This document shows positions 11,201 through 64,000 of a stretch of 64,000 bases of DNA, in pieces. The position numbers were made by a program, and so were the translations under genes. The stretch is taken from the IMG/VR virus record IMGVR_UViG_2718218136_000001. One strand, 5' to 3'. The notes below the pieces were generated by a model that saw nothing but the letters and a program-made list of their open reading frames with translations, was not told where the DNA came from and did no database searches. Every line of letters begins with the position of its first letter. Position 1 is the stretch's first letter. Origin of the DNA: a virus (lineage: Duplodnaviria; Heunggongvirae; Uroviricota; Caudoviricetes).

Positions 11201-11384
11201 CCAGCATCGCCGACTGAGATTTTACGGATATAAATTCATAGCCCTGATTTCGCAGGTCCTGAATCAGTTCACGTTCCAGGTCCGATTCGCTCTGGTAGCT
11301 GTCGCCTGTTGGCTCAGCTTTGATGTACTTATCAAGAACGATAAAGTTATTGGATTCAGCAATGGTGTGTGTCTGATGAGTCAT
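8268..11384 (-). CDS. hsdR: Type I restriction enzyme R subunit (type IC, EcoR124-like)
   Basis: 1038 aa; Walker A TGSGKT, DECH box (FDECHRSQ); own promoter region 11385-11505. Confidence 0.9.
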
Positions 11385-11505
11385 AGCGCATCCTTTGTGC
11401 CGTCTGGCAAGGGCCGGAAGGGGGGTAATGGTGACTTCCGGCGCGTAAAAAATAGTCTATATACTGACCGGGTGTTAAGGTGGTCCGATCGGTAGCAATG
11501 ATCAA

Positions 11506-12737
<1,232 letters not shown>

Positions 12738-12741
<4 letters not shown>

Positions 12742-14300
12742 TTTTGCACCTCGCAGCCTTCAATTTCAGCCACAATCGCATCAATATCTTTACGCAACTG
12801 GTCGATTTTGCTGACCGTGGTTTTCAGCTCAGCATTCAGCTCAGCAATATCGATAATTTCGCGGTTATCTTTCGCTTCCACATAGCTGCTCACCGACAGG
12901 TTATAGTCATTAGCAACAACGGTCTCAAACGCGACAGATTTCGCCAGATGAGCAACATCTTCCTTGCTGGCAAATACCTGCATAATCTGTTCGATATGGG
13001 TATCGGTCAGGATATTGTTGTTAGTCTCTTTTTTGAACAGTTCGCTGGCGTCAATAAACTGAACGTTGGTATCCGTTTTATGTTTGGACAGAACCAGAAT
13101 GTTTACTGCAATGGTGGTGCCAAAGAACAGGTTCGGTGCCAGTGAAATTACGGTTTCGACATAGTTATTGTCAATCAGATACTGACGGATTTTCTGCTCC
13201 GCGCCGCCACGGTAAAAAATACCCGGGAAGCAAACAATCGCAGCACGACCTTTGGCAGAAAGATAGTTCAGCGCATGTAGTACAAAGGCGAAGTCAGCTT
13301 TTGATTTGGGGGCCAGAACGCCAGCCGGGGCAAAACGCTCATCGTTAATCAGTGTCGGGTCATCGCTGCCAATCCATTTCACCGAATACGGCGGGTTAGA
13401 AACGATGGCATCAAACGGTTTTTCATCTCTGAAGTGCGGCTCAGTCAGTGTATTACCCAGCCTGATATCAAACTTGTCGTAGTTGATGTTGTGCAAAAAC
13501 ATGTTCATACGCGCCAGATTATAGGTCGTATGGTTGATTTCCTGACCGAAAAAGCCTTCTTCGATGATATGGTTATCAAACTGCTTTTTAGCCTGCAACA
13601 ACAGTGAGCCGGAACCCGCTGCCGGGTCGTAGATTTTGTTAACGTTGGTCTGCCCGTGCATAGCCAGTTGTGCAATCAGCCTGGAGACGTGCTGCGGTGT
13701 AAAGAACTCACCGCCTGACTTACCAGCATTCGCCGCATAGTTAGAAATCAGGAACTCATAGGCATCGCCGAACAGGTCAATCTGATGTTCGTTAAAGTCG
13801 CCAAGCTTTAAGCCTTCAACCCCTTTCAGGACCGCAGCCAGGCGGGCATTTTTATCCTTAACGGTGTTACCCAGGCGGTTACTGGTGGTATCGAAATCAG
13901 CAAACAGACCTTTGATGTCTGCTTCTGAAGGATAACCGTAAGCAGAACTTTCGATAGCAACGAAGATGCTGTTTAAATCTGCATTCAGTCTGTCATTGGT
14001 ATTTGCTTTCGCCGCTACGTTGCAGAAAAGCTGACTGGGGTAGATGAAGTAGCCTTTAGTTTTGATGGCATCGTCTTTAATATCATCAGTAATTACGCTG
14101 TCATCCAGTTTCGCATAACAGATACTGTCATCACCGGCTTCAATATAGCTGGAAAAATTTTCGCTGATAAAACGGTAGAAAAGTGCGCCCAGAACGTATT
14201 GCTTAAAATCCCATCCATCGACCGAACCCCTGACATCGTTAGCAATTTGCCAGATTTGACGATGAAGCTCTGCACGTTGTTGAATACTTGTCATTTTCAT
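12738..14300 (-). CDS. hsdM: Type I R-M N6-adenine DNA methyltransferase subunit
   Basis: 520 aa; NPPY motif (VSNPPYS) and AdoMet-binding [10 protein letters not shown]. Confidence 0.9.
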
Positions 14301-14476
14301 CCACTTATTTCAGGCTTATGTAATTGGATGTGATTCTACAGCAACTTGGATGCTTTAGCAGTTCGGATATTAGGCTACGAATGACCTGCCTAGAGGTTTG
14401 TTAAGCCGCAAAGTGCTGGTGCTTTATGTCTGTGAAGTTTATAATTGCGTACACATAACGAGTACACGAGGTATTT

Positions 14477-19637: not shown

Positions 19638-19640
19638 AAA

Positions 19641-19657
19641 CTTGCTCTAATAAATTG
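19641..19657 (+). promoter_or_regulatory. C1-operator-like site (cttgctctaataaattg) upstream of the icd-ant module
   Basis: 16/17 consensus match, 4 nt after the pacB stop. Confidence 0.55.
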
Positions 19658-19864
19658 TGTTTTTTGACTGCCGATGTTACATTGAACCTGACCTCTTGCG
19701 CCTTGAGGCATTTTCGGTTTATGCTTATCAGGCACCTCATTAAAACGGGTGCCGGGATTGAGACCCCGGATAATGTCAAAGGCGACACAGACGCCGAAAG
19801 CGTCTTTTTTTGTGTCATGCCATCGCACAGCCATACGTAGCGTTTAGCTCCGAAATCAATGGTA

Positions 19865-19955
19865 GTGCTGGCTGGGCTGCCGAAAGGCAGGCCGGTTCCC
19901 TTTGACGCCGGTAGTCTCAACCCAGTCAGTGCTACCGCCATTGAGATTGAGACCT
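19865..19955 (+). ncRNA. Candidate c4-like antisense RNA (immI repressor RNA)
   Basis: Hairpin gtctcaa...ttgagac (19914-19947) whose loop carries gctaccgc, complementary to gcggtagc at 19959-19966 just upstream of the icd RBS; direct repeat tagctcc at 19849 and 19963. Boundaries approximate. Confidence 0.35.
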
Positions 19956-19996
19956 CACGCGGTAGCTCCTTAACTTAGTCAAAGGAGGCTGCCATT

Positions 19997-20218
19997 ATGG
20001 CTACTGTCCCTACCCCAACTCATCCTGAATTCATCTGGCGCTTCTATTCCTGCCAGAAACGTCACTATCACTTCGTTATTGCACCGACAGAAGATGAGGC
20101 CCGTTCTCAGCTTCCTGACGCTCCCTGCATTTTCTCTGCCCGCTTTTCCACTGATTCGCGCAACTCTCTCAGTTACTGGTGCCTCCCTGTTAACGCTTCT
20201 GCTCAGGAGGGACTATGA
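19997..20218 (+). CDS. icd: Icd-like small protein (interference with cell division), translationally coupled to ant
   Basis: 73 aa; ATGA overlap with the ant start; paralog at 58961..59182. Confidence 0.6.
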   Translation: MATVPTPTHPEFIWRFYSCQKRHYHFVIAPTEDEARSQLPDAPCIFSARFSTDSRNSLSYWCLPVNASAQEGL

Positions 20219-21330
20219 GAACGTCATTAGTCACCCGTGAAGAAATGATTGAGGCAATTGAACAGCACACATCCTGTATCAGTACCAGGGATATACCGGG
20301 CGTTATTGCCAACTACTTCATGATCACCAAACAACTTTACCGGAGAAAGGACAAGAACGCTGTTCACCGCATTCTGTTGTCTGATATCCGCGAATACCTG
20401 CTCGAACAGGGGCATCTGAATTACGCAACCGTCGCAGCCGAAACACGCAAGGAGGCACACAGAATGAAAGCAACTAACGTTAAATCAGAAAAAACTCATG
20501 CACCTTCAGTTCAGGAATCGGAGCTGGTGGTTGTTCAGAATCAGTCTGATGAAATTCCCGTTCTGGAATGGCTGGGAGTGCGTGTAGTGACAACTAAGAT
20601 CCTTGCTAAGGGGTATGGGACAGATGCGGATAACATCAAGAAGAACTTTTCCCGTAATGCTGAACGTTTTTGTGAAGGCAAGCATTTCTATAAAGTTATT
20701 GGAGATGATTTGAACAATTTGCGGGTGACTTTAAGTAACTCACAAAATCCTATCTCTCCTAAAGCCCGCTCACTCATCCTCTGGACGGAACGCGGCGCAG
20801 CCCGCCACGCTAAAATGATCGAAACCGATCAGGCATGGGCATTCTTTGAAAAACTGGAAGACAGCTACTTCCGACAAAAAGAACAGCAACCGATCGCAAT
20901 CCCCCAGACGCTTCCAGAAGCTCTGCGCCTTGCTGCCGAACTGGCTGAACAAAAGCAACTTCTGGAACAGAAAGCCCATCAGCTAAATCAGCAGCTGGTG
21001 GCCGCAGCCCCCAAAGTCGATTTTGCCGACCGGGTATCAGTGGCTAAGGGGATCCTGATTGGGAATTTTGCAAAGGTCGTTGGACTTAAACAAAATGCGC
21101 TGTTTGCCTGGTTACGGGAGAACGGCATTCTGATAGCGTCCGGCGGCCGTAAAAATGTACCGTTCCAGCAGTACATAAACGCCGGATATTTCACAGTGAA
21201 AGAAGTGGTGCTGGATGATGAAGAGGGCTACCAGATACGGCTGACGCCCCAATTAACGGGGAAAGGCCAACAGTGGTTGACGCGTAAACTGCTCGATGCT
21301 GGCTTGTTAAAACCGGTGGCGGCTGAATAA
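20215..21330 (+). CDS. ant: Antirepressor Ant (N-terminal domain plus C-terminal antirepressor domain)
   Basis: 371 aa; C-terminal QQYINAGYFTVKEV...GKGQQWL block shared with the kilA-like gene and with the disrupted copy at 59179-60211. Confidence 0.7.
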   Translation: MRTSLVTREEMIEAIEQHTSCISTRDIPGVIANYFMITKQLYRRKDKNAVHRILLSDIREYLLEQGHLNYATVAAETRKEAHRMKATNVKSEKTHAPSVQESELVVVQNQSDEIPVLEWLGVRVVTTKILAKGYGTDADNIKKNFSRNAERFCEGKHFYKVIGDDLNNLRVTLSNSQNPISPKARSLILWTERGAARHAKMIETDQAWAFFEKLEDSYFRQKEQQPIAIPQTLPEALRLAAELAEQKQLLEQKAHQLNQQLVAAAPKVDFADRVSVAKGILIGNFAKVVGLKQNALFAWLRENGILIASGGRKNVPFQQYINAGYFTVKEVVLDDEEGYQIRLTPQLTGKGQQWLTRKLLDAGLLKPVAAE

Positions 21331-21362
21331 TGGAAGAATGCCCGGTTGATGCCGGGCATAAT

Positions 21363-22906: not shown

Positions 22907-22940
22907 TCGGGCCTAATAACTTCGTATAGCATACATTATA
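22907..22940. other. lox recombination site, loxP variant (ATAACTTCGTATA-GCATACAT-TATACGAAGTAAA)
   Basis: 13-8-13 architecture; left arm and spacer identical to loxP (reverse orientation), right arm differs at two positions. Confidence 0.85.
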
Positions 22941-23138
22941 CGAAGTAAACTTAAGGGTTATTGAACATGAACAATTTACCTGTAAATCCATACAGTTCAA
23001 TACCTTATCAGGTCAAATAGTGATCACTTGATCATTTGATCAAGATTGCGCTACGTAAAATCTGTGAAAAGTTGGCAGTGTTAGTGCTCCAGATTTCGCG
23101 TAGCGCACTTAGCACCACCAATCAATCAGAGGTGAAAA

Positions 23139-23360
23139 ATGGGATATTCAGCTGCTAAAGTGTCCACTCATCTTGAGCTTGAGAAAAACCGTGGTTACTG
23201 GCGGGCAAAAGGGTTTGAGCGTGATAGTTACCAACTGTCATTATCTCGCGGTGAAGAGAAAATAGAACGCACGCGCGGTCGCTGGCGTTTCTATGACGAG
23301 AACCATAAACAGGTAAAGGCAGAGCCGATCCTGTACACTTTACTTAAAACCATTATCTGA
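23139..23360 (+). CDS. Hypothetical small protein between lox and cre
   Basis: 73-aa ORF with aggtga RBS; may instead be cre leader/promoter sequence. Confidence 0.3.
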   Translation: MGYSAAKVSTHLELEKNRGYWRAKGFERDSYQLSLSRGEEKIERTRGRWRFYDENHKQVKAEPILYTLLKTII

Positions 23361-23367
23361 GTGTTAA

Positions 23368-24399
23368 ATGTCCAATTTACTGACCGTACACCAAAATTTG
23401 CCTGCATTACCGGTCGATGCAACGAGTGATGATGTTCGCAAGAACCTGATGGACATGTTCAGGGATCGCCAGGCGTTTTCTGAGCATACATGGAAAATGC
23501 TTCTGTCCGTTTGCCGGTCGTGGGCGGCATGGTGCAAGTTGAATAACCGGAAGTGGTTTCCCGCAGAACCTGAAGATGTTCGCGATTATCTTCTATATCT
23601 TCAGGCGCGCGGTCTGGCAGTAAAAACTATCCAGCAACATTTGGGCCAGCTAAACATGCTTCATCGTCGGTCCGGGCTGCCACGACCAAGTGACAGCAAT
23701 GCTGTTTCACTGGTTATGCGGCGGATCCGAAAAGAAAACGTTGATGCCGGTGAACGTGCAAAACAGGCTCTAGCGTTCGAACGCACTGATTTCGACCAGG
23801 TTCGTTCACTCATGGAAAATAGCGATCGCTGCCAGGATATACGTAATCTGGCATTTCTGGGGATTGCTTATAACACCCTGTTACGTATAGCCGAAATTGC
23901 CAGGATCAGGGTTAAAGATATCTCACGTACTGACGGTGGGAGAATGTTAATCCATATTGGCAGAACGAAAACGCTGGTTAGCACCGCAGGTGTAGAGAAG
24001 GCACTTAGCCTGGGGGTAACTAAACTGGTCGAGCGATGGATTTCCGTCTCTGGTGTAGCTGATGATCCGAATAACTACCTGTTTTGCCGGGTCAGAAAAA
24101 ATGGTGTTGCCGCGCCATCTGCCACCAGCCAGCTATCAACTCGCGCCCTGGAAGGGATTTTTGAAGCAACTCATCGATTGATTTACGGCGCTAAGGATGA
24201 CTCTGGTCAGAGATACCTGGCCTGGTCTGGACACAGTGCCCGTGTCGGAGCCGCGCGAGATATGGCCCGCGCTGGAGTTTCAATACCGGAGATCATGCAA
24301 GCTGGTGGCTGGACCAATGTAAATATTGTCATGAACTATATCCGTAACCTGGATAGTGAAACAGGGGCAATGGTGCGCCTGCTGGAAGATGGCGATTAG
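23368..24399 (+). CDS. cre: Cre tyrosine recombinase
   Basis: 343 aa, MSNLLTVHQNLPALPVDATSD...; essentially the Cre sequence. Confidence 0.98.
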   Translation: MSNLLTVHQNLPALPVDATSDDVRKNLMDMFRDRQAFSEHTWKMLLSVCRSWAAWCKLNNRKWFPAEPEDVRDYLLYLQARGLAVKTIQQHLGQLNMLHRRSGLPRPSDSNAVSLVMRRIRKENVDAGERAKQALAFERTDFDQVRSLMENSDRCQDIRNLAFLGIAYNTLLRIAEIARIRVKDISRTDGGRMLIHIGRTKTLVSTAGVEKALSLGVTKLVERWISVSGVADDPNNYLFCRVRKNGVAAPSATSQLSTRALEGIFEATHRLIYGAKDDSGQRYLAWSGHSARVGAARDMARAGVSIPEIMQAGGWTNVNIVMNYIRNLDSETGAMVRLLEDGD

Positions 24400-24416
24400 C
24401 CATTAACGCTTAAATG

Positions 24417-24433
24417 ATTGCTCTAATTATTTG
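24417..24433 (+). promoter_or_regulatory. C1-operator-like site after cre
   Basis: attgctctaattatttg. Confidence 0.5.
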
Positions 24434-24449
24434 ATATTTATGGTGACAT

Positions 24450-24761
24450 GTGAGAAAGGATTTCAACATCGACGGAAAATATGTATTGCTGTCTGTAAGC
24501 ACTAATATTCAGTCGCCAGCCGTCATTGTCACTGTAAAGCTGAGCGATAGAATGCCTGATATTGACTCAATATCCGTTGCGTTTCCTGTCAAAAGTATGC
24601 GTAGTGCTGAACATTTCGTGATGAATGCCACCGAGGAAGAAGCACGGCGCGGTTTTGCTAAAGTGATGTCTGAGTTTGGCGAACTCTTGGGTAAGGTTAA
24701 CAATGTCCTTTCAATCAGTTCAGCAAGGTCCAAAGCGTTAACAGCTTCCATGATGAAATAA
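24450..24761 (+). CDS. Small protein downstream of cre (cra position)
   Basis: 103-aa ORF; synteny only. Confidence 0.45.
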   Translation: MRKDFNIDGKYVLLSVSTNIQSPAVIVTVKLSDRMPDIDSISVAFPVKSMRSAEHFVMNATEEEARRGFAKVMSEFGELLGKVNNVLSISSARSKALTASMMK

Positions 24762-24893
24762 AAAAAAGCCTGGCAAGGAGCCAGGCTGCACAAAAGAGCG
24801 GGTTTGTATTCCACATCCAATCAATCAAGAAGGAGTATAGCACACAGGTACTGAAGTGAAAAAATGTGATTCGCGATAAACAAAATACCTATC

Positions 24894-24910
24894 ATTGCTC
24901 TAATTGATTG
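24894..24910 (+). promoter_or_regulatory. C1-operator-like site upstream of ref, with an overlapping second partial site
   Basis: attgctctaattgattgctataattg. Confidence 0.55.
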
Positions 24911-24977
24911 CTATAATTGAGCCGCAGTTTTTGTCAACTACGAAGACGTTGCCATTACTTCACTCCTTGACATCATT

Positions 24978-25003
24978 GGCGGCCATTAGGCCGCCTTTTT
25001 TTT
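24978..25003 (+). terminator. GC-rich hairpin (ggcggcc atta ggccgcc) followed by T8, ending 5 nt before the ref ATG
   Basis: Read directly. Confidence 0.6.
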
Positions 25004-25008
25004 GCCAT

Positions 25009-25452
25009 ATGAAAACAATCGAACAAAAAATTGAACAGTGCCGCAAGTGGCAGAAGGCAGCCAGAGAACGAGCGATCGCTCGGCAACGGGAGAAGTTGGC
25101 TGATCCGGTCTGGCGAGAATCTCAATATCAGAAAATGCGGGATACTCTCGACCGCCGTATCGCTAAACAGAAAGAGCGCCCACCAGCCAGCAAAACGCGG
25201 AAAAGCGCGGTAAAAATAAAATCTCGTGGCTTGAAGGGGAGAACACCAACGGCGGAGGAACGGCGCATCGCCAATGCTCTTGGCGCTCTCCCCTGCATTG
25301 CCTGCTATATGCATGGAGTAATATCTAATGAGGTGTCTCTGCACCATATCGCCGGTCGTACCGCGCCGGGTTGTCATAAAAAGCAATTGCCACTTTGTAG
25401 ATGGCACCACCAGCATGCAGCTCCGGCTGAAGTAAGAGAAAAATACCCATGA
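25009..25452 (+). CDS. ref: Ref HNH endonuclease (recombination enhancement function), truncated by in-frame TGA
   Basis: MKTIEQKIEQCRKWQ...; HNH signature SLHHIAGR...CRWHHQ; the reading frame continues for 38 more codons after the TGA to a TAA at 25567-25569. Confidence 0.8.
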   Translation: MKTIEQKIEQCRKWQKAARERAIARQREKLADPVWRESQYQKMRDTLDRRIAKQKERPPASKTRKSAVKIKSRGLKGRTPTAEERRIANALGALPCIACYMHGVISNEVSLHHIAGRTAPGCHKKQLPLCRWHHQHAAPAEVREKYP

Positions 25453-25757
25453 CTGGTCCCTGTTCATGCCGATGGTGTGGTTGGAGGCAAGAAAGAATTC
25501 ACCTTGCTGAACAAGTCAGAGATGGAGTTACTGGCTGACGCCTATGAAATGGCAAACATCATGCACTAATAAATATATTATTTTTAATGATAAATGATTG
25601 ACAACTGACAAGTGACTTCAGTCAGAATCATCACACGCCCGGTACGGATGGATCCCTTTTCAAATATTCCATGGACGGCACAGTCTGAGTACCGGGCGCT
25701 ACCTTCAGTTGTATTGCTAAGCCGCCGCTGGTGGCTTTTCTTTTTTGTAGGGGCGCT

Positions 25758-26399
25758 ATGGATAAGAAAATATGCGTTGTTTCAATGAGCGTCGGCAAAC
25801 CGGCGTCAATGACTGCTGCATGGATCAACAATGAGCTGATCATGGCTGAGCGGACCAGCTACCCTGAACGCCGCCGCGATATGGAACTCCAGCTGCTGCG
25901 CGAATTGCGAGAAAAAGAGGAAAAGGGTTTTATCGTGCTGGTGGAAGAGGAAAACAGCTTTATTACCGGTCGAGTTGGCCAGCGTGTAAGGTTGCGTGAT
26001 CCCTTCATGAACGGCAGACCGGTACTGATTGAAGCAATGCAGATTTACAAGGAATTGGAACGCCAGAAAGCGATCAAGTTACCGCGCAAGGAATCCGGCA
26101 AATACATCCTTCACCAAAGCATCTTCGATTCCGAACACGATAAAAAAGGCGATGAATTTTTCAACATCAACTGGAGCGAAATAACGACAGAACATGTTCT
26201 GACGTTACTATGTTGCTTTGCGACGGAATACAACAACGTTGCCAGCGCCGACTACATCAGGGCAATGGCTGGAGAAGTTGAGGCCCGCCAGGAGCCATCG
26301 TTACTAAGCCCTCTGATTAACAGAATTCGCGGAACCCAAACGCTGGCACAAAAACGGGTGCCGAAAGGGGAATTAACAGGAAAAGGAAATTATCTATAA
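25758..26399 (+). CDS. Protein at the mat (particle maturation) position
   Basis: ORF track 25731..26399; ATG at 25758 (MDKKICVV) has a better RBS; synteny. Confidence 0.45.
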   Translation: MDKKICVVSMSVGKPASMTAAWINNELIMAERTSYPERRRDMELQLLRELREKEEKGFIVLVEEENSFITGRVGQRVRLRDPFMNGRPVLIEAMQIYKELERQKAIKLPRKESGKYILHQSIFDSEHDKKGDEFFNINWSEITTEHVLTLLCCFATEYNNVASADYIRAMAGEVEARQEPSLLSPLINRIRGTQTLAQKRVPKGELTGKGNYL

Positions 26400-26455: not shown

Positions 26456-27556
26456 ATGAGCGAATATGTTGAGTTAGCATACGCTGCCGCTACAAGCAGG
26501 CTTTGTCTATTTACCGGGACTGGCTTTTCAAAGGCAGTCTCGAACGGCGAAGCACCAACGTGGAAAGAACTATTAAAAAAAGTTTGCAGCAAAGTTCACA
26601 ACGCCAAACAGTTGGAAGACACGTTATTCCCTGATGATAAACCACCAGCACTGAGTCTTGAAGAAGCCGCACAAATACTATCTTTGAAGCTCAACATTGA
26701 AGGCAAGTCGATTTATGATGAAATTGTTGACATCATATCTCCAATACAACTTGGCGAAGATATATCAAATATAAAGGATTTTTTTCAAAAAAGAACATTT
26801 CGTGTCATTACAACGAATTATGACAAGTTAGCTGAATACTTAACTGGAGATGAGGAGGTTCAGTCTATTACCCCAGGCTTACCTATTCCTAAATATCCCT
26901 CCAAAGTTAAAATATATCATGTCCATGGTTCTATTGACTCTCCACAAAACATGATTGTTACATCAGAAGACTATTTTAGGTTTATAAACTCCGACACTTA
27001 TTTCTCTCGAAAACTTAGCACGATGCTGCATGAAAATACAGTTGCGATATTAGGCTATTCTTTAAGCGACACGAACCTAAAAGCAATTATAAATGATTAC
27101 AAAATATTCTCGAAAGGTAACACTCTGTGCTCTAATATATTTTTCATCTCTCGCAGTGAAGTAAGTCAAGATATGAAGGATTATTATTTTTATTGTTTTG
27201 GAATACGAGTAATTGACAACACCGAAATAGACTCTTTCTTTAAGAGATTGAGCATTAACATAATGTTAATTGAAGGCGTCATAGCAAGAGCCAGACAAAG
27301 TATAAAAAGAGTTTTATCAGGCACTTTTAACTATAAGGATGAATACATTAGATTAGAAGATTCATTCTATCAAATAACTTCCTCGATTATATCTGAGGGT
27401 TTCGACTGGAATGACGGACAAGTAGTTGATTTTTTTCAAGAGAATAATAAAACAAAAAAGAGACTTAACAAGAGAGAGTGGTGCTTGGGAGCAATACGAG
27501 CAGCTTGCAAAATGGCTTATATATTTCGGCAGCCTTTTAGAAATTGGTGGAACTAA
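26456..27556 (+). CDS. SIR2-family protein (putative NAD+-depleting defence effector), possibly continuing to 27746 after a +1 frameshift
   Basis: FTGTGFS, TTNYD and YHVHGS motifs typical of defence-associated SIR2 domains; AT-rich; overlapping ORF 27426..27746 in another frame looks like the true C-terminus. Confidence 0.65.
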   Translation: MSEYVELAYAAATSRLCLFTGTGFSKAVSNGEAPTWKELLKKVCSKVHNAKQLEDTLFPDDKPPALSLEEAAQILSLKLNIEGKSIYDEIVDIISPIQLGEDISNIKDFFQKRTFRVITTNYDKLAEYLTGDEEVQSITPGLPIPKYPSKVKIYHVHGSIDSPQNMIVTSEDYFRFINSDTYFSRKLSTMLHENTVAILGYSLSDTNLKAIINDYKIFSKGNTLCSNIFFISRSEVSQDMKDYYFYCFGIRVIDNTEIDSFFKRLSINIMLIEGVIARARQSIKRVLSGTFNYKDEYIRLEDSFYQITSSIISEGFDWNDGQVVDFFQENNKTKKRLNKREWCLGAIRAACKMAYIFRQPFRNWWN

Positions 27557-27814
27557 GTATGAAAATGAATATTTAGACGCCGTTGAATACTCAATGTCCA
27601 ACATGAGCAAAGAAATGAGATTAGGTTATTCGTGGCATGCTTATAGAGCTTGGGAAACAAGATGGTCCACAATCATTGCTTCAAATCGATTAATAATAAA
27701 AAACGCATCGAAGAAATTGGCGTACTGGAGGATGCTAATTCTATAGTAAAAGATATAGTGTAATTGAAGAGCGGCAAAAATTTAACGGGCAGCTACAACT
27801 GCCCGATATATAAA

Positions 27815-61201: not shown

Positions 61202-61636
61202 ATGCTGGCTAAAGTCACTTTCCTGAGCTGTATAACGATGAGCGATTTTACTTTTTCTGGCTATGAATTGGCCTGCTTTGTAACACACTCCGGTCTATCC
61301 CGTAGCGCCGGGCATATCCTGTCGCAATGTGCAAATCTCGCGGCAACAACCAGTGAATACTTCATTCACAAGCCTCACCGCCTGATCGCGGCAGAAACTG
61401 GTTATAGCCAATCAACCGTCGTTCGTGCATTCCGTGAAGCTGTAAACAAAGGAATTCTGTCTGTAGAGATTGTTATCGGCGATCACCGTGAACGTCGCGC
61501 TAACCTGTACCGGTTTACACCATCCTTTTTGGCCTTCGCACAACAAGCCAAAAATGCGCTGATTGAAAGCAAATTAAAGATCTCTTCAGCGGCAACCAAG
61601 GTTAAGCTGTTCTCGCTAAGACATTGGCTTATTTAA
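61202..61636 (+). CDS. HTH-containing protein at the repL position (possible short or truncated RepL-like lytic replication initiator)
   Basis: 144 aa; winged-helix-like AETGYSQSTVVRAFREAVNKGIL; synteny after kilA. Confidence 0.3.
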   Translation: MLAKVTFLSCITMSDFTFSGYELACFVTHSGLSRSAGHILSQCANLAATTSEYFIHKPHRLIAAETGYSQSTVVRAFREAVNKGILSVEIVIGDHRERRANLYRFTPSFLAFAQQAKNALIESKLKISSAATKVKLFSLRHWLI

Positions 61637-62040
61637 TTTTTATCCACACCCCCATGTCAAAATGATACCCCCTCCCCCTGTCAGGATGACGTGGCAATAA
61701 AGAATAAGAAGTCACAAGTTAAAAAACAAAAAGATCAGTTTCCGGCGGTGCCGGAACGACCAGACTCAAAAAATGACTTCATGGATCGCTGAGGCAAAAG
61801 CAAAGGCTGACAATCTGCGGTTATCCAAAAAACGCGCTCAAAAACATGAGTTCAAGCAGAAAGTAGAGGCGGCAGCGCGGAAATATGCTTACCTGAAGGA
61901 CAAGGCGTCTCCTGATATTGCGGGATATCAAACTTCGATAATCTGCCGCATTGCATGACGGTAAACGAAGCTCTTAATGCGGTTTAGCCAAAAAAAGATA
62001 ACGAACAATGGGGTATACCGGCAGATTCAGAGGGTGATAG

Positions 62041-62057
62041 ATTGCTCTAATCTGGAG
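62041..62057 (+). promoter_or_regulatory. C1-operator-like site (attgctctaatctggag)
   Basis: 11/17 with a perfect left half. Confidence 0.35.
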
Positions 62058-62500
62058 TCACTGGCGTTTTCAGTTTGAGTCGGAGATGCAATTGATTTTT
62101 TACAGTTAGCGATCGCTTTGCAGGATATGTTTGTATTGGCTTCTGTGTATACATGATAGCCGAAAAATGCTTGTCGATATCGACCGCAAAGAACAAGCAG
62201 GAGATTCTAGTATGGATTTTCTTTGGCGCGGTCTGGCCATTAGGATCATGTTTGCTGCAACATTTCTTCTGATGTGGATATTCACCCTTCCAGGTGATTC
62301 TATAGAAAAAAAGCCAGACATTGATACAATCGTTGCGGTGCTTGAGGCTATCTGCTTCAGGCATTACCCGAAAAGCAGATAGAAGAAGCCCCAGTAACAT
62401 TACGCGTCCTGCAAGACGCTTAACATTAATCTGAGCATATCTATGCTTAGCATACGTAGATTAGCCTCTTACCGACCAAAAGGTCAAGGAGAAGCAGGCT

Positions 62501-62646
62501 ATGAAGCAGCAAAAAGCGATGTAATCGCTCTGATCGTCATCTGTTTAACCGTCATTGTGACGGCACTGGTAACGAGAAAGACCTCTGCGAGTACGAATCC
62601 GAACGGCCAACGGAGTCACTGTCTTCACAGCCTACCGAATCTGAAA
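62501..62646 (+). pseudogene. Degenerate hok/gef-family membrane toxin gene (at least three frameshifts)
   Basis: MKQQKAM (frame 2), VIALIVICLTVIVTALVTRK (frame 1), DLCE (frame 0) and VRIRTANGVTVFTAY (frame 2) together resemble HokC/Gef MKQHKAMIVALIVICITAVVAALVTRKDLCEVHIRTGQTEVAVFTAYESE. Confidence 0.5.
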
Positions 62647-63906
62647 GTAAGAACCTGCGGGAGAGATCCCTGCACTCTTCGTGTGTCAGGTATCTCAATG
62701 CACCCTTTCCTCTCCAAATAAAAAAGCTCCCGAAGGAGCTTTAAAATACAAGGGATGACTCTTAAGCCCACTCATCCAGTTGTAGACGATACGAAGTGAC
62801 GGGCGCACAGCGGCAGTCACATCTTCGTACTAAAGTCGATTGCATCACTGTAGATTTTGCAGTCCAACATTTCAATTTGTAGCAGCTTTTGTCACAGCGT
62901 TACCCGGAAGATTTGATTCAGGGTCGCAGCCATCGTGATATCAACATAGTCCTTCGCCGCAATGCGATCTTAATGAACTGAAGAATATCGCCTTCGATAG
63001 TCTCCACCACTGGACCTGGATTTCCCCAGAGTTTCGAATTGGACCGTGCTGGTTGAACTTCACACCATTCGGACCATAGTCCTCCACATCCTCGCGGTCA
63101 TTCAGGAATTTGCGACGTGCGAACCAGTACGCTGATATCTTCATGCTGCAAAAGTGAGCTGGAATTCAGAAGATACCAGTCGTTCGCCTTTGGCCGCGTT
63201 GCAGTATAGCGGCCTTAATAAATTTACGGTTTCCTTAGTGTTATTGTCCCCATATAAAATCTTTTACTGAACGCCCGACATATCGGAGCTGTTATATCGA
63301 AGAACCGGTCAACTGGAGTTGCGGTGTTTTCAGGAAATGCCCATTGGTCCCTGGCGCATCGAGATCGAAACTTATGTCTGGATAGCGACATCAATGATGT
63401 TGATCCGCGACCAATGTTTAGCGTCACACGCTCCGGGATTCGACCACCAATACTGGCATCTTTAAGTTCCGGGCTAATCATCGCTGACAATGCGGCGATA
63501 GCTCCTGAAACCTCCGTGAATGGTCAAACAAAGCGATGAAAGTTACTGGCAGCGTGAAAGTCGGCGGTGTTCCCCCCTCCCAAACCATTAAGCTGTTCAA
63601 CGGGCCACCGACGTTGTTTCAGTACCAACCTGCGCAAAACCACTGAAAGCACCAGCAACAGACCCCATGGACATACCGGTAAACGGCGCTTCCCAATTCT
63701 GGGCCATGTTCATTGCTGCCCCCTGGCTGATATCCGGTAACCTGGTACTGAGAGTTCGTTAAAGTAACTTTCAGAAATGGCGATACACCGTCAGCCTGGC
63801 TGTAAACCCCATAAGGAATAGGTGCCATTCAAGTTAAAGGCCGGAGTTCTCCGGCCTCCTCCTTTAGCCAAGGCGCTTACGGCGCAGTTTCATTGACTTT
63901 TTGCGG

Positions 63907-64000
63907 AATGTAAATATTGTCATGAACTATATCCGTAACCTGGATAGTGAAACAGGGGCAATGGTGCGCCTGCTGGAAGATGGCGATTAGCCATTAACGC
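63907..64000 (+). repeat. Duplicate of the cre 3' end and downstream flank (identical to 24316-24409), cut by the window edge
   Basis: 94 bp identical, including the codons for NVNIVMNYIRNLDSETGAMVRLLEDGD-stop. Confidence 0.85.

What the first reader, a model, noticed from the sequence alone, without database searches (positions are those of the whole stretch)
25450..25569. ref is interrupted by an in-frame opal codon with 38 intact codons downstream
Translation stops at TGA (25450-25452) after EKYP, yet the same frame continues without stops to a TAA at 25567-25569, giving a total of 186 codons, the length I recall for P1 Ref. This looks like a single TGG-to-TGA change. Either Ref is truncated (losing the C-terminal tail after the HNH motif) or it is completed by UGA read-through.
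Basis: partly seen in the sequence, partly recalled or inferred. Interest (0 to 1): 0.5.

Follow-up and report, generated by a model that had tools for sequence, protein, structure and literature searches.

The report
Nonsense allele of P1 ref nuclease
A P1-like plasmid-prophage carries a real, naturally circulating stop-codon mutation (Trp148 to stop) in its non-essential Ref nuclease gene, which cuts off part of the active site; this is ordinary gene inactivation, not a recoding signal.

Summary
The remaining 38 codons are identical in protein to P1 Ref 149-186.

It is not a sequencing error. The same TGA plus GAA haplotype occurs in four other independent assemblies. A fifth assembly, on a diverged backbone, has TAG at the same codon. 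The allele is rare: about 5 contigs against more than 1,500 with intact P1-type Ref, and none in about 1,000 complete phage or plasmid records.

The lost segment is not a tail after the HNH motif. It holds His153, a ligand of the active-site zinc, 11 of the 32 invariant residues and the last third of the Pfam domain.

Nothing points to programmed read-through. TGG is otherwise universal, TGA ends 22 of 44 intact genes here, the window has no tRNA, and no RNA structure follows the stop. A basal leak of a few percent would reinsert Trp.

ref is often disrupted in P1-like plasmids: about 1 in 5 PLSDB records lack an uninterrupted copy. Verdict: an ordinary loss-of-function allele of a known gene.

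The parts
24889..24976 (+). ref regulatory region: promoters P2ref and P1ref and the C1 operator Oref, placed by transfer from the P1 annotation (P1 1957-2044, offset +22932)
   Evidence: P1 features. Window 24850-25749 aligns to P1 without gaps and has only three substitutions. The one upstream of ref is T to C at 24888, one base outside the -35 hexamer of P2ref. Function is inferred from P1, not tested.
25009..25452 (+). truncated ref reading frame: 147 codons plus the premature TGA. It encodes the 76-residue basic N-terminal DNA-binding segment and the first 71 residues of the nuclease domain.
   Evidence: The Pfam RecA_dep_nuc match covers residues 80-145, profile positions 1-66 of 103. 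Domain limits are from PMC4330346.
25450..25452 (+). premature opal codon at Trp148 (TGG in P1; G to A at 25452), followed by C
   Evidence: The same TGA is in L014, L016, L017 and L018; L015 has TAG at the same codon.
25453..25569 (+). orphaned 3' part of ref: codons 149-186 plus TAA, including the His153 codon at 25465-25467
   Evidence: Identical in protein to P1 Ref 149-186. Pfam profile positions 69-102, E = 1.6e-10. The role of His153 is from PMC3973344.
25548..25548 (+). synonymous G to A (Glu180, GAG to GAA) linked to the TGA in every TGA carrier; it marks a single-origin haplotype
25560..25577 (-). C1 operator Omat, overlapping the last codons of ref (transferred from P1 2628-2645)
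   Evidence: P1 annotation. The sequence is identical to P1 over this stretch.

Best explanation
This is a genuine, heritable nonsense allele (Trp148 to opal) of ref, the RecA-dependent HNH nuclease gene of a P1-like plasmid-prophage.

Shown: a single G to A transition changed TGG to TGA. The allele sits on one haplotype, linked to a synonymous change at codon 180, and that haplotype circulates in nature.

Inferred: ribosomes terminate at UGA and release a 147-residue product. This product keeps the basic N-terminal DNA-binding segment, the zinc-binding cysteines and His112, His113 and His134. It lacks the conserved WLVPVHADG loop with the zinc ligand His153 and the two C-terminal helices. It should therefore be unable to make RecA-directed double-strand breaks, and it is probably misfolded or unstable.

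Inferred: ref is dispensable for the plasmid-prophage and costly to the host, so such alleles are tolerated or mildly favoured. A few percent of ribosomes may read UGA with Trp-tRNATrp and restore wild-type Ref, as an unselected by-product.
For: Mutation identity.

Real and inherited: the exact TGA-containing 30-mer is in a metagenome contig. The exact truncated product is called on 5 contigs from 5 different samples. Four of them carry TGA plus the linked GAA. L014 is 99.96% identical to the window over 10.3 kb. L016 and L018 have patchy, mosaic flanks.

Independent recurrence: L015, on a 97.2% backbone, has TAG at codon 148 with different linked sites.

What is lost: the Pfam domain spans residues 80-182 and the truncated product covers profile positions 1-66 of 103. 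W148, L149, P151, V152, H153, A154, G159, G160, F164, N168 and L174 are invariant in 30 full-length homologues down to 49% identity. The AlphaFold2 model (pLDDT 90.5) places helices 161-167 and 171-181 after the stop. His153 coordinates the active-site Zn2+, and H153A cannot make double-strand breaks (PMC3973344; PMC4330346).

Dispensable and costly: ref+ lysogens reach a lower stationary-phase density and are more sensitive to ciprofloxacin than delta-ref lysogens (PMC4713147).

Recurrent loss in nature: 134 of 647 PLSDB records with ref DNA lack a copy covering at least 80% in one piece. There is also an 82-nt deletion allele, a Tn3-family insertion allele and several frameshifted cluster representatives.

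Otherwise clean sequence: every other P1 homologue tested upstream of window position 57,300 (the P1 homologues tested) is full length without stops or frameshifts. mat, which first looked split, is the 213-aa form shared with relatives.
Against: No protein-level data exist. The stability and activity of Ref(1-147) are inferred, not measured. H153A Ref still nicks the paired strand slowly, so losing His153 alone is not a complete null; the argument for a null rests on also losing two helices and 11 invariant residues.

The same codon was hit twice independently, and none of 8 other hypothetical C-terminal nonsense products of the same allele is in the collection. This leaves some room for a non-neutral explanation.

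The source record has a low-quality stretch elsewhere (61.6-63.6 kb), so its base calls are not uniformly reliable, although independent assemblies corroborate the TGA itself.
Confidence: 0.8

Rival explanations
1. Sequencing or assembly error: the true base at 25452 is G and Ref is intact.
For: The same window has a stretch (about 61,600-63,550) with roughly 70 single-base deletions against its closest relative, and an anomalous junction at 63906/63907. So the record is not uniformly reliable. The variant is absent from about 1,000 complete phage, plasmid and E. coli records.
Against: Four other assemblies from different samples carry exactly the same TGA plus the linked synonymous change. 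The errors in the bad stretch are almost all deletions at short base runs, not substitutions. The ref region has no indel against its relatives.
Confidence: 0.03
2. Attenuated rather than dead: UGA-C is leaky, and Trp-tRNATrp reads it and reinserts the original Trp. The allele would then deliver a few percent of wild-type Ref and be maintained as a low-dose version of a toxic nuclease.
For: UGA read-through by Trp-tRNATrp is about 2% at 37 C and 4% at 25 C in E. coli K-12 reporters (PMC10570021). From my own knowledge of Poole et al. 1995 (not re-read here), the C following the stop is the weakest termination context. The inserted residue would be the wild-type one. The 38 downstream codons carry only a synonymous change in both the TGA and the TAG lineage.
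Against: The stop is not conserved: it is a rare allele of about 1% or less, and TGG is found everywhere else. The independent second allele is TAG, which tRNATrp does not read in the same way. No stimulatory RNA structure follows the stop (z = 0.52). TGA ends 22 of 44 intact genes in the window, three of them as TGA-C. Intact downstream codons are expected for a young mutation without any selection.
Confidence: 0.1
3. Selected truncation: Ref(1-147) is a stable nuclease-dead protein kept for its N-terminal DNA-binding activity (modulation of SOS or cell division). This would explain repeated breaks at codon 148.
For: The N-terminal 76 residues alone induce SOS more strongly than wild-type Ref (PMC4713147). 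Codon 148 carries two independent nonsense mutations. An 82-nt deletion starts at the same codon. A frameshifted cluster representative (P0008) changes frame at the same codon (inferred from its protein sequence). Eight other hypothetical nonsense products were not found.
Against: Natural disruptions are spread along the gene: after residues 92, 103-114, 132 and 152, plus 5' deletions. Late truncations are easier to detect by a homology search, which biases the sample. Two events among the few transition-accessible sites are not statistically compelling; four TGG codons supply 8 of the 19 nonsense transitions. The 82-nt deletion is explained by a TGGCTG direct repeat.
Confidence: 0.06
4. UGA is decoded as a sense codon in this element or its host, through an altered code or a suppressor tRNA.
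For: None beyond the open downstream frame.
Against: TGA terminates 22 of 44 intact P1-homologous genes in the window. ARAGORN finds no tRNA gene in the window. All relatives are Escherichia or Salmonella plasmids.
Confidence: 0.01

Closest known systems
[quoted passage not shown]
   Same: Same gene at the same locus, between c8 and mat and behind the C1-controlled Oref operator. It is 559/561 nt identical to P1 ref. All 185 translated sense codons are identical to P1 Ref.
   Different: Codon 148 is TGA instead of TGG, so the primary product ends at residue 147 of 186.
Engineered Ref variants: H153A, H134A/H153A (Ref nuc-) and Ref-deltaC110 (PMC3973344, PMC4330346, PMC4713147)
   Same: All lack the His153 zinc ligand and are defective in making double-strand breaks. 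All keep the N-terminal DNA-binding segment, which on its own induces SOS.
   Different: The point mutants are folded full-length proteins and deltaC110 removes the whole globular domain. The natural allele keeps 71 of the 110 domain residues. Its folding and activity are untested.
Other naturally disrupted ref alleles in P1-like phage-plasmids
   Same: The outcome is the same, an interrupted ref: an 82-nt deletion removing codons from 148 onward (L011); a Tn3-family transposon after Trp132 (L012); an IS1 insertion (H153); and frameshifted or truncated cluster representatives. 134 of 647 PLSDB records lack an uninterrupted copy.
   Different: Here a single base substitution leaves the rest of the gene untouched.
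Leaky UGA termination read by Trp-tRNATrp in E. coli (reporter and nudL read-through, PMC10570021)
   Same: A UGA codon in an E. coli-type host, so the same basal competition between release factor RF2 and Trp-tRNATrp should apply. The inserted residue would be Trp.
   Different: There is no conservation of the stop and no stimulatory element. It is a rare mutant allele, not an evolved read-through site.

Membership tests
Ref / RecA_dep_nuc (PF16786) RecA-dependent HNH nucleases | Sequence match to the family profile above the curated threshold | tested here: met
   The conceptual full-length product scores 172.7 bits against a cutoff of 26.9, over residues 80-182. The truncated 147-aa product scores 112.9 bits but covers only profile positions 1-66 of 103.
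Ref / RecA_dep_nuc (PF16786) RecA-dependent HNH nucleases | Complete His-Me finger active site, including the three histidines that coordinate the catalytic metal (His153 among them) | tested here: not met
   The stop at codon 148 precedes the His153 codon at 25465-25467. His153 is a zinc ligand (PMC3973344) and is invariant in 30 homologues. The gene belongs to the family, but its primary product is an incomplete member.
Ref / RecA_dep_nuc (PF16786) RecA-dependent HNH nucleases | Basic, disordered N-terminal segment of about 76 residues that binds DNA | tested here: met
   Residues 1-76 are identical to P1 Ref. Their properties are taken from PMC4330346.
Ref / RecA_dep_nuc (PF16786) RecA-dependent HNH nucleases | RecA-filament-dependent DNA cleavage | not testable with these tools
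   This needs a biochemical assay of Ref(1-147) with RecA and a D-loop substrate.
P1 immC-proximal locus (cre - c8 - ref - mat) | Gene order and C1-controlled operators as in P1 | tested here: met
   Window 22933-26393 is collinear with P1 1-3462. The operator and promoter stretches are identical to P1 apart from one base at 24888.
Programmed stop-codon read-through (recoding) sites | The in-frame stop is conserved among relatives | tested here: not met
   There is no exact match to the TGA version in 14 phage records, 504 plasmid records, 528 E. coli records, the GTDB genomes or IMG/VR. Only about 5 contigs carry a stop at codon 148, against at least 1,520 contigs with the intact P1-type product.
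Programmed stop-codon read-through (recoding) sites | A stimulatory downstream RNA structure or special context | tested here: not met
   The 101 nt around and after the stop fold no better than shuffled sequence (z = 0.52). The sequence is the same as in wild-type ref.

The most novel reading that the evidence does not exclude
Codon 148 of ref may be a preferred breakpoint. In that case natural P1-like plasmids would repeatedly convert Ref into a nuclease-dead 147-residue protein, or through UGA leak into a low-dose nuclease. Either form would keep the N-terminal SOS-inducing DNA-binding activity while relieving the host of ref-dependent toxicity and quinolone hypersensitivity. That would be an adaptive attenuation rather than random decay.
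Probability: 0.08. Interest if true: 0.45.

Novelty: already known. Interest (0 to 1): 0.15.

Why it matters
It matters little for basic biology. Ref, its structure and the role of His153 are well characterised, and a nonsense allele of a dispensable accessory gene is routine.

There are two practical points. Annotators should call this ref a pseudogene or truncated gene, not a recoded gene. Lysogens of this lineage are predicted to lack the ref-dependent enhancement of ciprofloxacin killing described for P1, which bears on phage-antibiotic synergy with P1-like elements.

The recurrence of breaks at codon 148 is a small curiosity. A systematic census of ref alleles could settle whether it is more than chance.

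Tried and rejected
1. Private mutation or sequencing error. This was my first reading, because the TGA version had no exact match in the phage, plasmid, E. coli, GTDB or IMG/VR collections, and the 147-aa product from the ATG start was not on record. I rejected it after the metagenome scan and a look-up of the product with the upstream start that gene callers use (173 aa). Together these found five independent carriers.

2. mat next door is also frameshifted. tblastn against P1 Mat split into two frames, with a G4 run against G5 in P1 at 25746-25749. Rejected: relatives L004 and L005 share G4, and all relatives annotate a 213-aa Mat equal to window 25758-26399.

3. Methylation-motif or other systematic miscall. 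The 43 substitutions private to the window against 7 relatives share no motif. They are transition-rich, as expected for natural divergence.

4. Suppressor tRNA or altered genetic code. Rejected.

5. A read-through-stimulating RNA structure. None found.

6. Cluster sizes as counts of disrupted alleles. I first read the 929 members of cluster P0011 as 929 Tn3-interrupted refs. One search shows that the cluster consists mostly of normal 186-aa Ref, so only the representative is known to be disrupted.

7. Hot-spot test. Eight other hypothetical nonsense products of the same allele (W132, Q135, Q126, E141, K145, Y146, K161, E163) are absent from the collection. This is suggestive, but with only two independent events it is not significant.

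It was repeated with database proteins.

Full report
**Observation**

The frame that opens with ATG at 25009 reads MKTIEQ...EKYP, stops at TGA (25450-25452), and then continues for 38 sense codons to TAA at 25567-25569. That makes 186 sense codons in all. Against ref of phage P1 (NC_005856 2077-2637) the 561 bases align without gaps. They differ at two positions: TGG to TGA at codon 148 (G to A at 25452) and a synonymous GAG to GAA at codon 180 (25548). With Trp restored, the protein is identical to the crystallised P1 Ref (PDB 3PLW, 186 residues).

An open run of 38 codons would occur by chance with P of about 0.14 in sequence of this composition. The openness alone therefore says nothing. 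The 38 codons matter because they are ref: they match Pfam RecA_dep_nuc profile positions 69-102 with E = 1.6e-10.

**What the window is**

The window is a P1-like plasmid-prophage, not laboratory P1. It is collinear with P1 from about coordinate 76.3 kb, through lox (window 22933 = P1 coordinate 1), to about 54.6 kb. Identity is roughly 98%, and several modules are replaced. One example is a SIR2-family gene where P1 has res/mod. The ref allele itself is of the P1 type, while the best-matching plasmids over the surrounding 14 kb are only 95-97% identical.

The P1 homologues tested by tblastn upstream of window position 57,300 are full length without stops or frameshifts, apart from ref. mat first looked split, but that was a false alarm. 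The G4 run at 25746-25749 (G5 in P1) is shared with relatives, and all relatives annotate a 213-aa Mat equal to window 25758-26399.

**Is the stop real?**

At first it looked private. No exact match to the TGA version exists in 14 phage records, 504 PLSDB plasmids, 528 complete E. coli records, the GTDB species genomes or IMG/VR. The window also contains a clearly unreliable stretch elsewhere (see below).

A scan of metagenome contigs then found the exact TGA-containing 30-mer. A look-up of the truncated product with the upstream start that gene callers choose (173 aa) found it on five contigs from five different samples.

- **L014** (Logan ERR15823409) is 99.96% identical to the window over 10.3 kb.
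- **L016** (ERZ28666530), **L017** (ERZ773216) and **L018** (ERZ28619713) carry the same TGA and the same linked GAA at codon 180.
- **Mosaic flanks.** L016 and L018 differ from the window in clustered patches, 11 differences in the 5' part of mat and 15 in the 3' part of c8. This is the mosaic pattern expected when a haplotype has been around long enough to recombine.
- **L015** (Logan ERR1609596) lies on a backbone only 97.2% identical. It has TAG, not TGA, at codon 148 and different linked sites (GAG at codon 180, CTG at codon 166). That is an independent amber mutation of the same Trp codon.

So the stop is a real, inherited allele. It is also rare.

**What the stop removes**

Ref has a basic, disordered 76-residue N-terminal DNA-binding segment and a 110-residue globular HNH domain, residues 77-186 (PMC4330346). 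The Pfam domain spans residues 80-182, and the truncated product covers only profile positions 1-66 of 103.

His153 lies five codons after the stop. It is one of three histidines coordinating the active-site Zn2+ and is equated with His131 of the colicin E9 HNH motif. The H153A protein nicks the paired strand slowly but cannot cut the displaced strand, so it makes no double-strand breaks (PMC3973344). The published nuclease-minus Ref is H134A/H153A (PMC4713147).

In 30 full-length homologues down to 49% identity, W148, L149, P151, V152, H153, A154, G159, G160, F164, N168 and L174 are invariant. These are 11 of the 32 invariant positions. An AlphaFold2 model of a 96%-identical homologue (mean pLDDT 90.5) places the beta-hairpin at 110-113 and 126-129 and short helices at 131-134 and 140-145. 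After the stop position come the conserved loop and two helices, 161-167 and 171-181.

The lost part is therefore a third of the catalytic domain, including part of the active site. It is not a tail after the motif. I infer, without having tested it, that Ref(1-147) cannot make RecA-directed double-strand breaks and is probably poorly folded.

**Read-through**

Nothing suggests recoding.
- The stop is not conserved.
- TGA is the ordinary terminator of 22 of 44 intact genes in the window, three of them in the same TGA-C context.
- The window has no tRNA gene.
- The RNA around and after the stop folds no better than shuffled sequence (z = 0.52).
- The independent second allele is TAG.

What is expected is the ordinary leak. 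In E. coli K-12 reporters Trp-tRNATrp reads UGA at about 2% (37 C) to 4% (25 C) in competition with release factor RF2 (PMC10570021). From my own knowledge of Poole et al. 1995, which I did not re-read here, a C after the stop is the weakest termination context. Because the misreading tRNA inserts Trp, that minor product would be wild-type Ref. This is a by-product of the chemistry, and I found no evidence that it is selected.

**Why such an allele persists**

ref is not needed for plasmid maintenance or lytic growth, and it is costly. ref+ lysogens reach a lower stationary-phase density and are more sensitive to ciprofloxacin than delta-ref lysogens (PMC4713147).

Natural P1-like plasmids lose ref often. 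Of 647 PLSDB records with ref DNA, only 513 have a copy covering at least 80% in one piece, and at least one of those is split by IS1. Other examples are an 82-nt deletion between TGGCTG repeats that removes codons from 148 onward, a Tn3-family insertion after Trp132, and several frameshifted or truncated cluster representatives.

About 4.8% of all single-base changes in ref, and 3.4% of transitions, create a stop. The four TGG codons supply 8 of the 19 nonsense transitions. One nonsense change among the many substitutions that separate this lineage from its relatives (43 listed in 14 kb against seven relatives) is therefore unremarkable.

**The one curiosity**

Codon 148 has been hit several times:
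- TGA, in the window's haplotype.
- TAG, in L015.
- The left end of the 82-nt deletion.
- A one-base deletion in cluster representative P0008, judging from its protein sequence.

Eight other hypothetical nonsense products of the same allele are not in the collection. Three things weaken this as evidence of selection. Only two of the events are clean independent point mutations. Late truncations are the easiest to detect by homology. The deletion is explained by microhomology. I give about 8% to the reading that truncation at this point is favoured.

**Verdict**

This is a confirmed, real but ordinary loss-of-function (at most strongly attenuated) allele of a well-known gene. It should be annotated as a truncated gene or pseudogene.

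**Seen in passing**

- **Low-quality stretch.** The window has a stretch with about 70 single-base deletions, mostly in short base runs, and few substitutions against its closest relative (61.6-63.6 kb). These break kilA, repL, bplB and pmgG.
- **Odd junction.** That stretch ends at a junction (63906/63907) after which window 24316-24409, the 3' end of cre, is repeated exactly.
- **SIR2-family gene.** The gene next to mat is frameshifted by a T7 run (T6 in relatives). L014 shares this frameshift.
- **lox arm.** The right arm of lox ends GAAGTAAA instead of GAAGTTAT, also in L014.
- **c8 start codon.** It is GTG only in the window.
- **pmgQ stop.** The stop of pmgQ is TAT instead of TAA.

Noticed in passing
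window 61600-63550 (sparser from about 59800): There are about 70 single-base deletions, mostly in short base runs, and very few substitutions against the closest relative (NZ_CP099360, L010) and against P1. They break the frames of kilA, repL, bplB and pmgG. This looks like an unpolished, low-quality stretch of the source assembly rather than biology.
   Followed up: partly
window 63906/63907 and 63907-64000 versus 24316-24409: Collinearity with P1 and with all plasmid relatives ends at 63906, just past pmgG. The last 94 bases of the window are an exact repeat of the window's own 3' end of cre (24316-24409). This could be a misassembly or a real duplication or rearrangement. If the repeat continues beyond the window, a second c8-ref copy could exist.
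   Followed up: partly
locus L015 (Logan ERR1609596) 2246-2884; equivalent to window 25450-25452: This locus has an independent amber mutation (TGG to TAG) at the same ref codon 148, on a backbone only 97.2% identical to the window. Its linked sites are also different.
   Followed up: yes
window 26456-27763: The SIR2-family gene that replaces P1 res/mod is frameshifted. A T7 run at 27424-27430 (T6 in L004, L016, L017) gives a 366-aa ORF instead of 435 aa, and the independent assembly L014 shares this. A further A6 run (A7 in L014, L016, L017) near 27698 is seen only in the window.
   Followed up: partly
window 22916-22949: The lox site reads ATAACTTCGTATAGCATACATTATACGAAGTAAA. The outer bases of the right arm differ from loxP (GAAGTTAT to GAAGTAAA, at 22947 and 22949). 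Seven relatives lack the change but the near-identical contig L014 has it. Its effect on Cre recombination is not assessed.
   Followed up: no
window 24450: The c8 start codon is GTG here, but ATG in P1, in seven plasmid relatives and in the four TGA/TAG-carrier contigs that cover this position. It is a window-only change or an error.
   Followed up: no
window 5856-5858: The stop codon of the pmgQ homologue is TAT instead of P1's TAA. The frame therefore runs on for at least 67 more codons, through the OpmgR operator region.
   Followed up: no
window 25746-25749 and 25758-26399: The P1 reference has G5 where the window and some relatives have G4. Relatives annotate a 213-aa Mat from the downstream ATG, not the 250-aa Mat of the P1 record. 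The long P1 Mat N-terminus may therefore be specific to P1 or an annotation choice.
   Followed up: partly
window 8193-14400 and 19640-21360: In the first stretch the P1 genes pmgT to humD have no counterpart (no tblastn hit), so the module has been replaced. The second stretch holds a second icd/ant-like immunity module between pacB and c1 (icd-like at 20018-20215, ant-like at 20215-21321), as in the plasmid relatives. The content of the replaced module was not examined.
   Followed up: no
locus L011 (Logan SRR19363049) 1501-2800: This is another natural ref allele. An 82-nt deletion between TGGCTG direct repeats removes codons from 148 onward. A DUF4145 gene is inserted between ref and mat.
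   Followed up: partly
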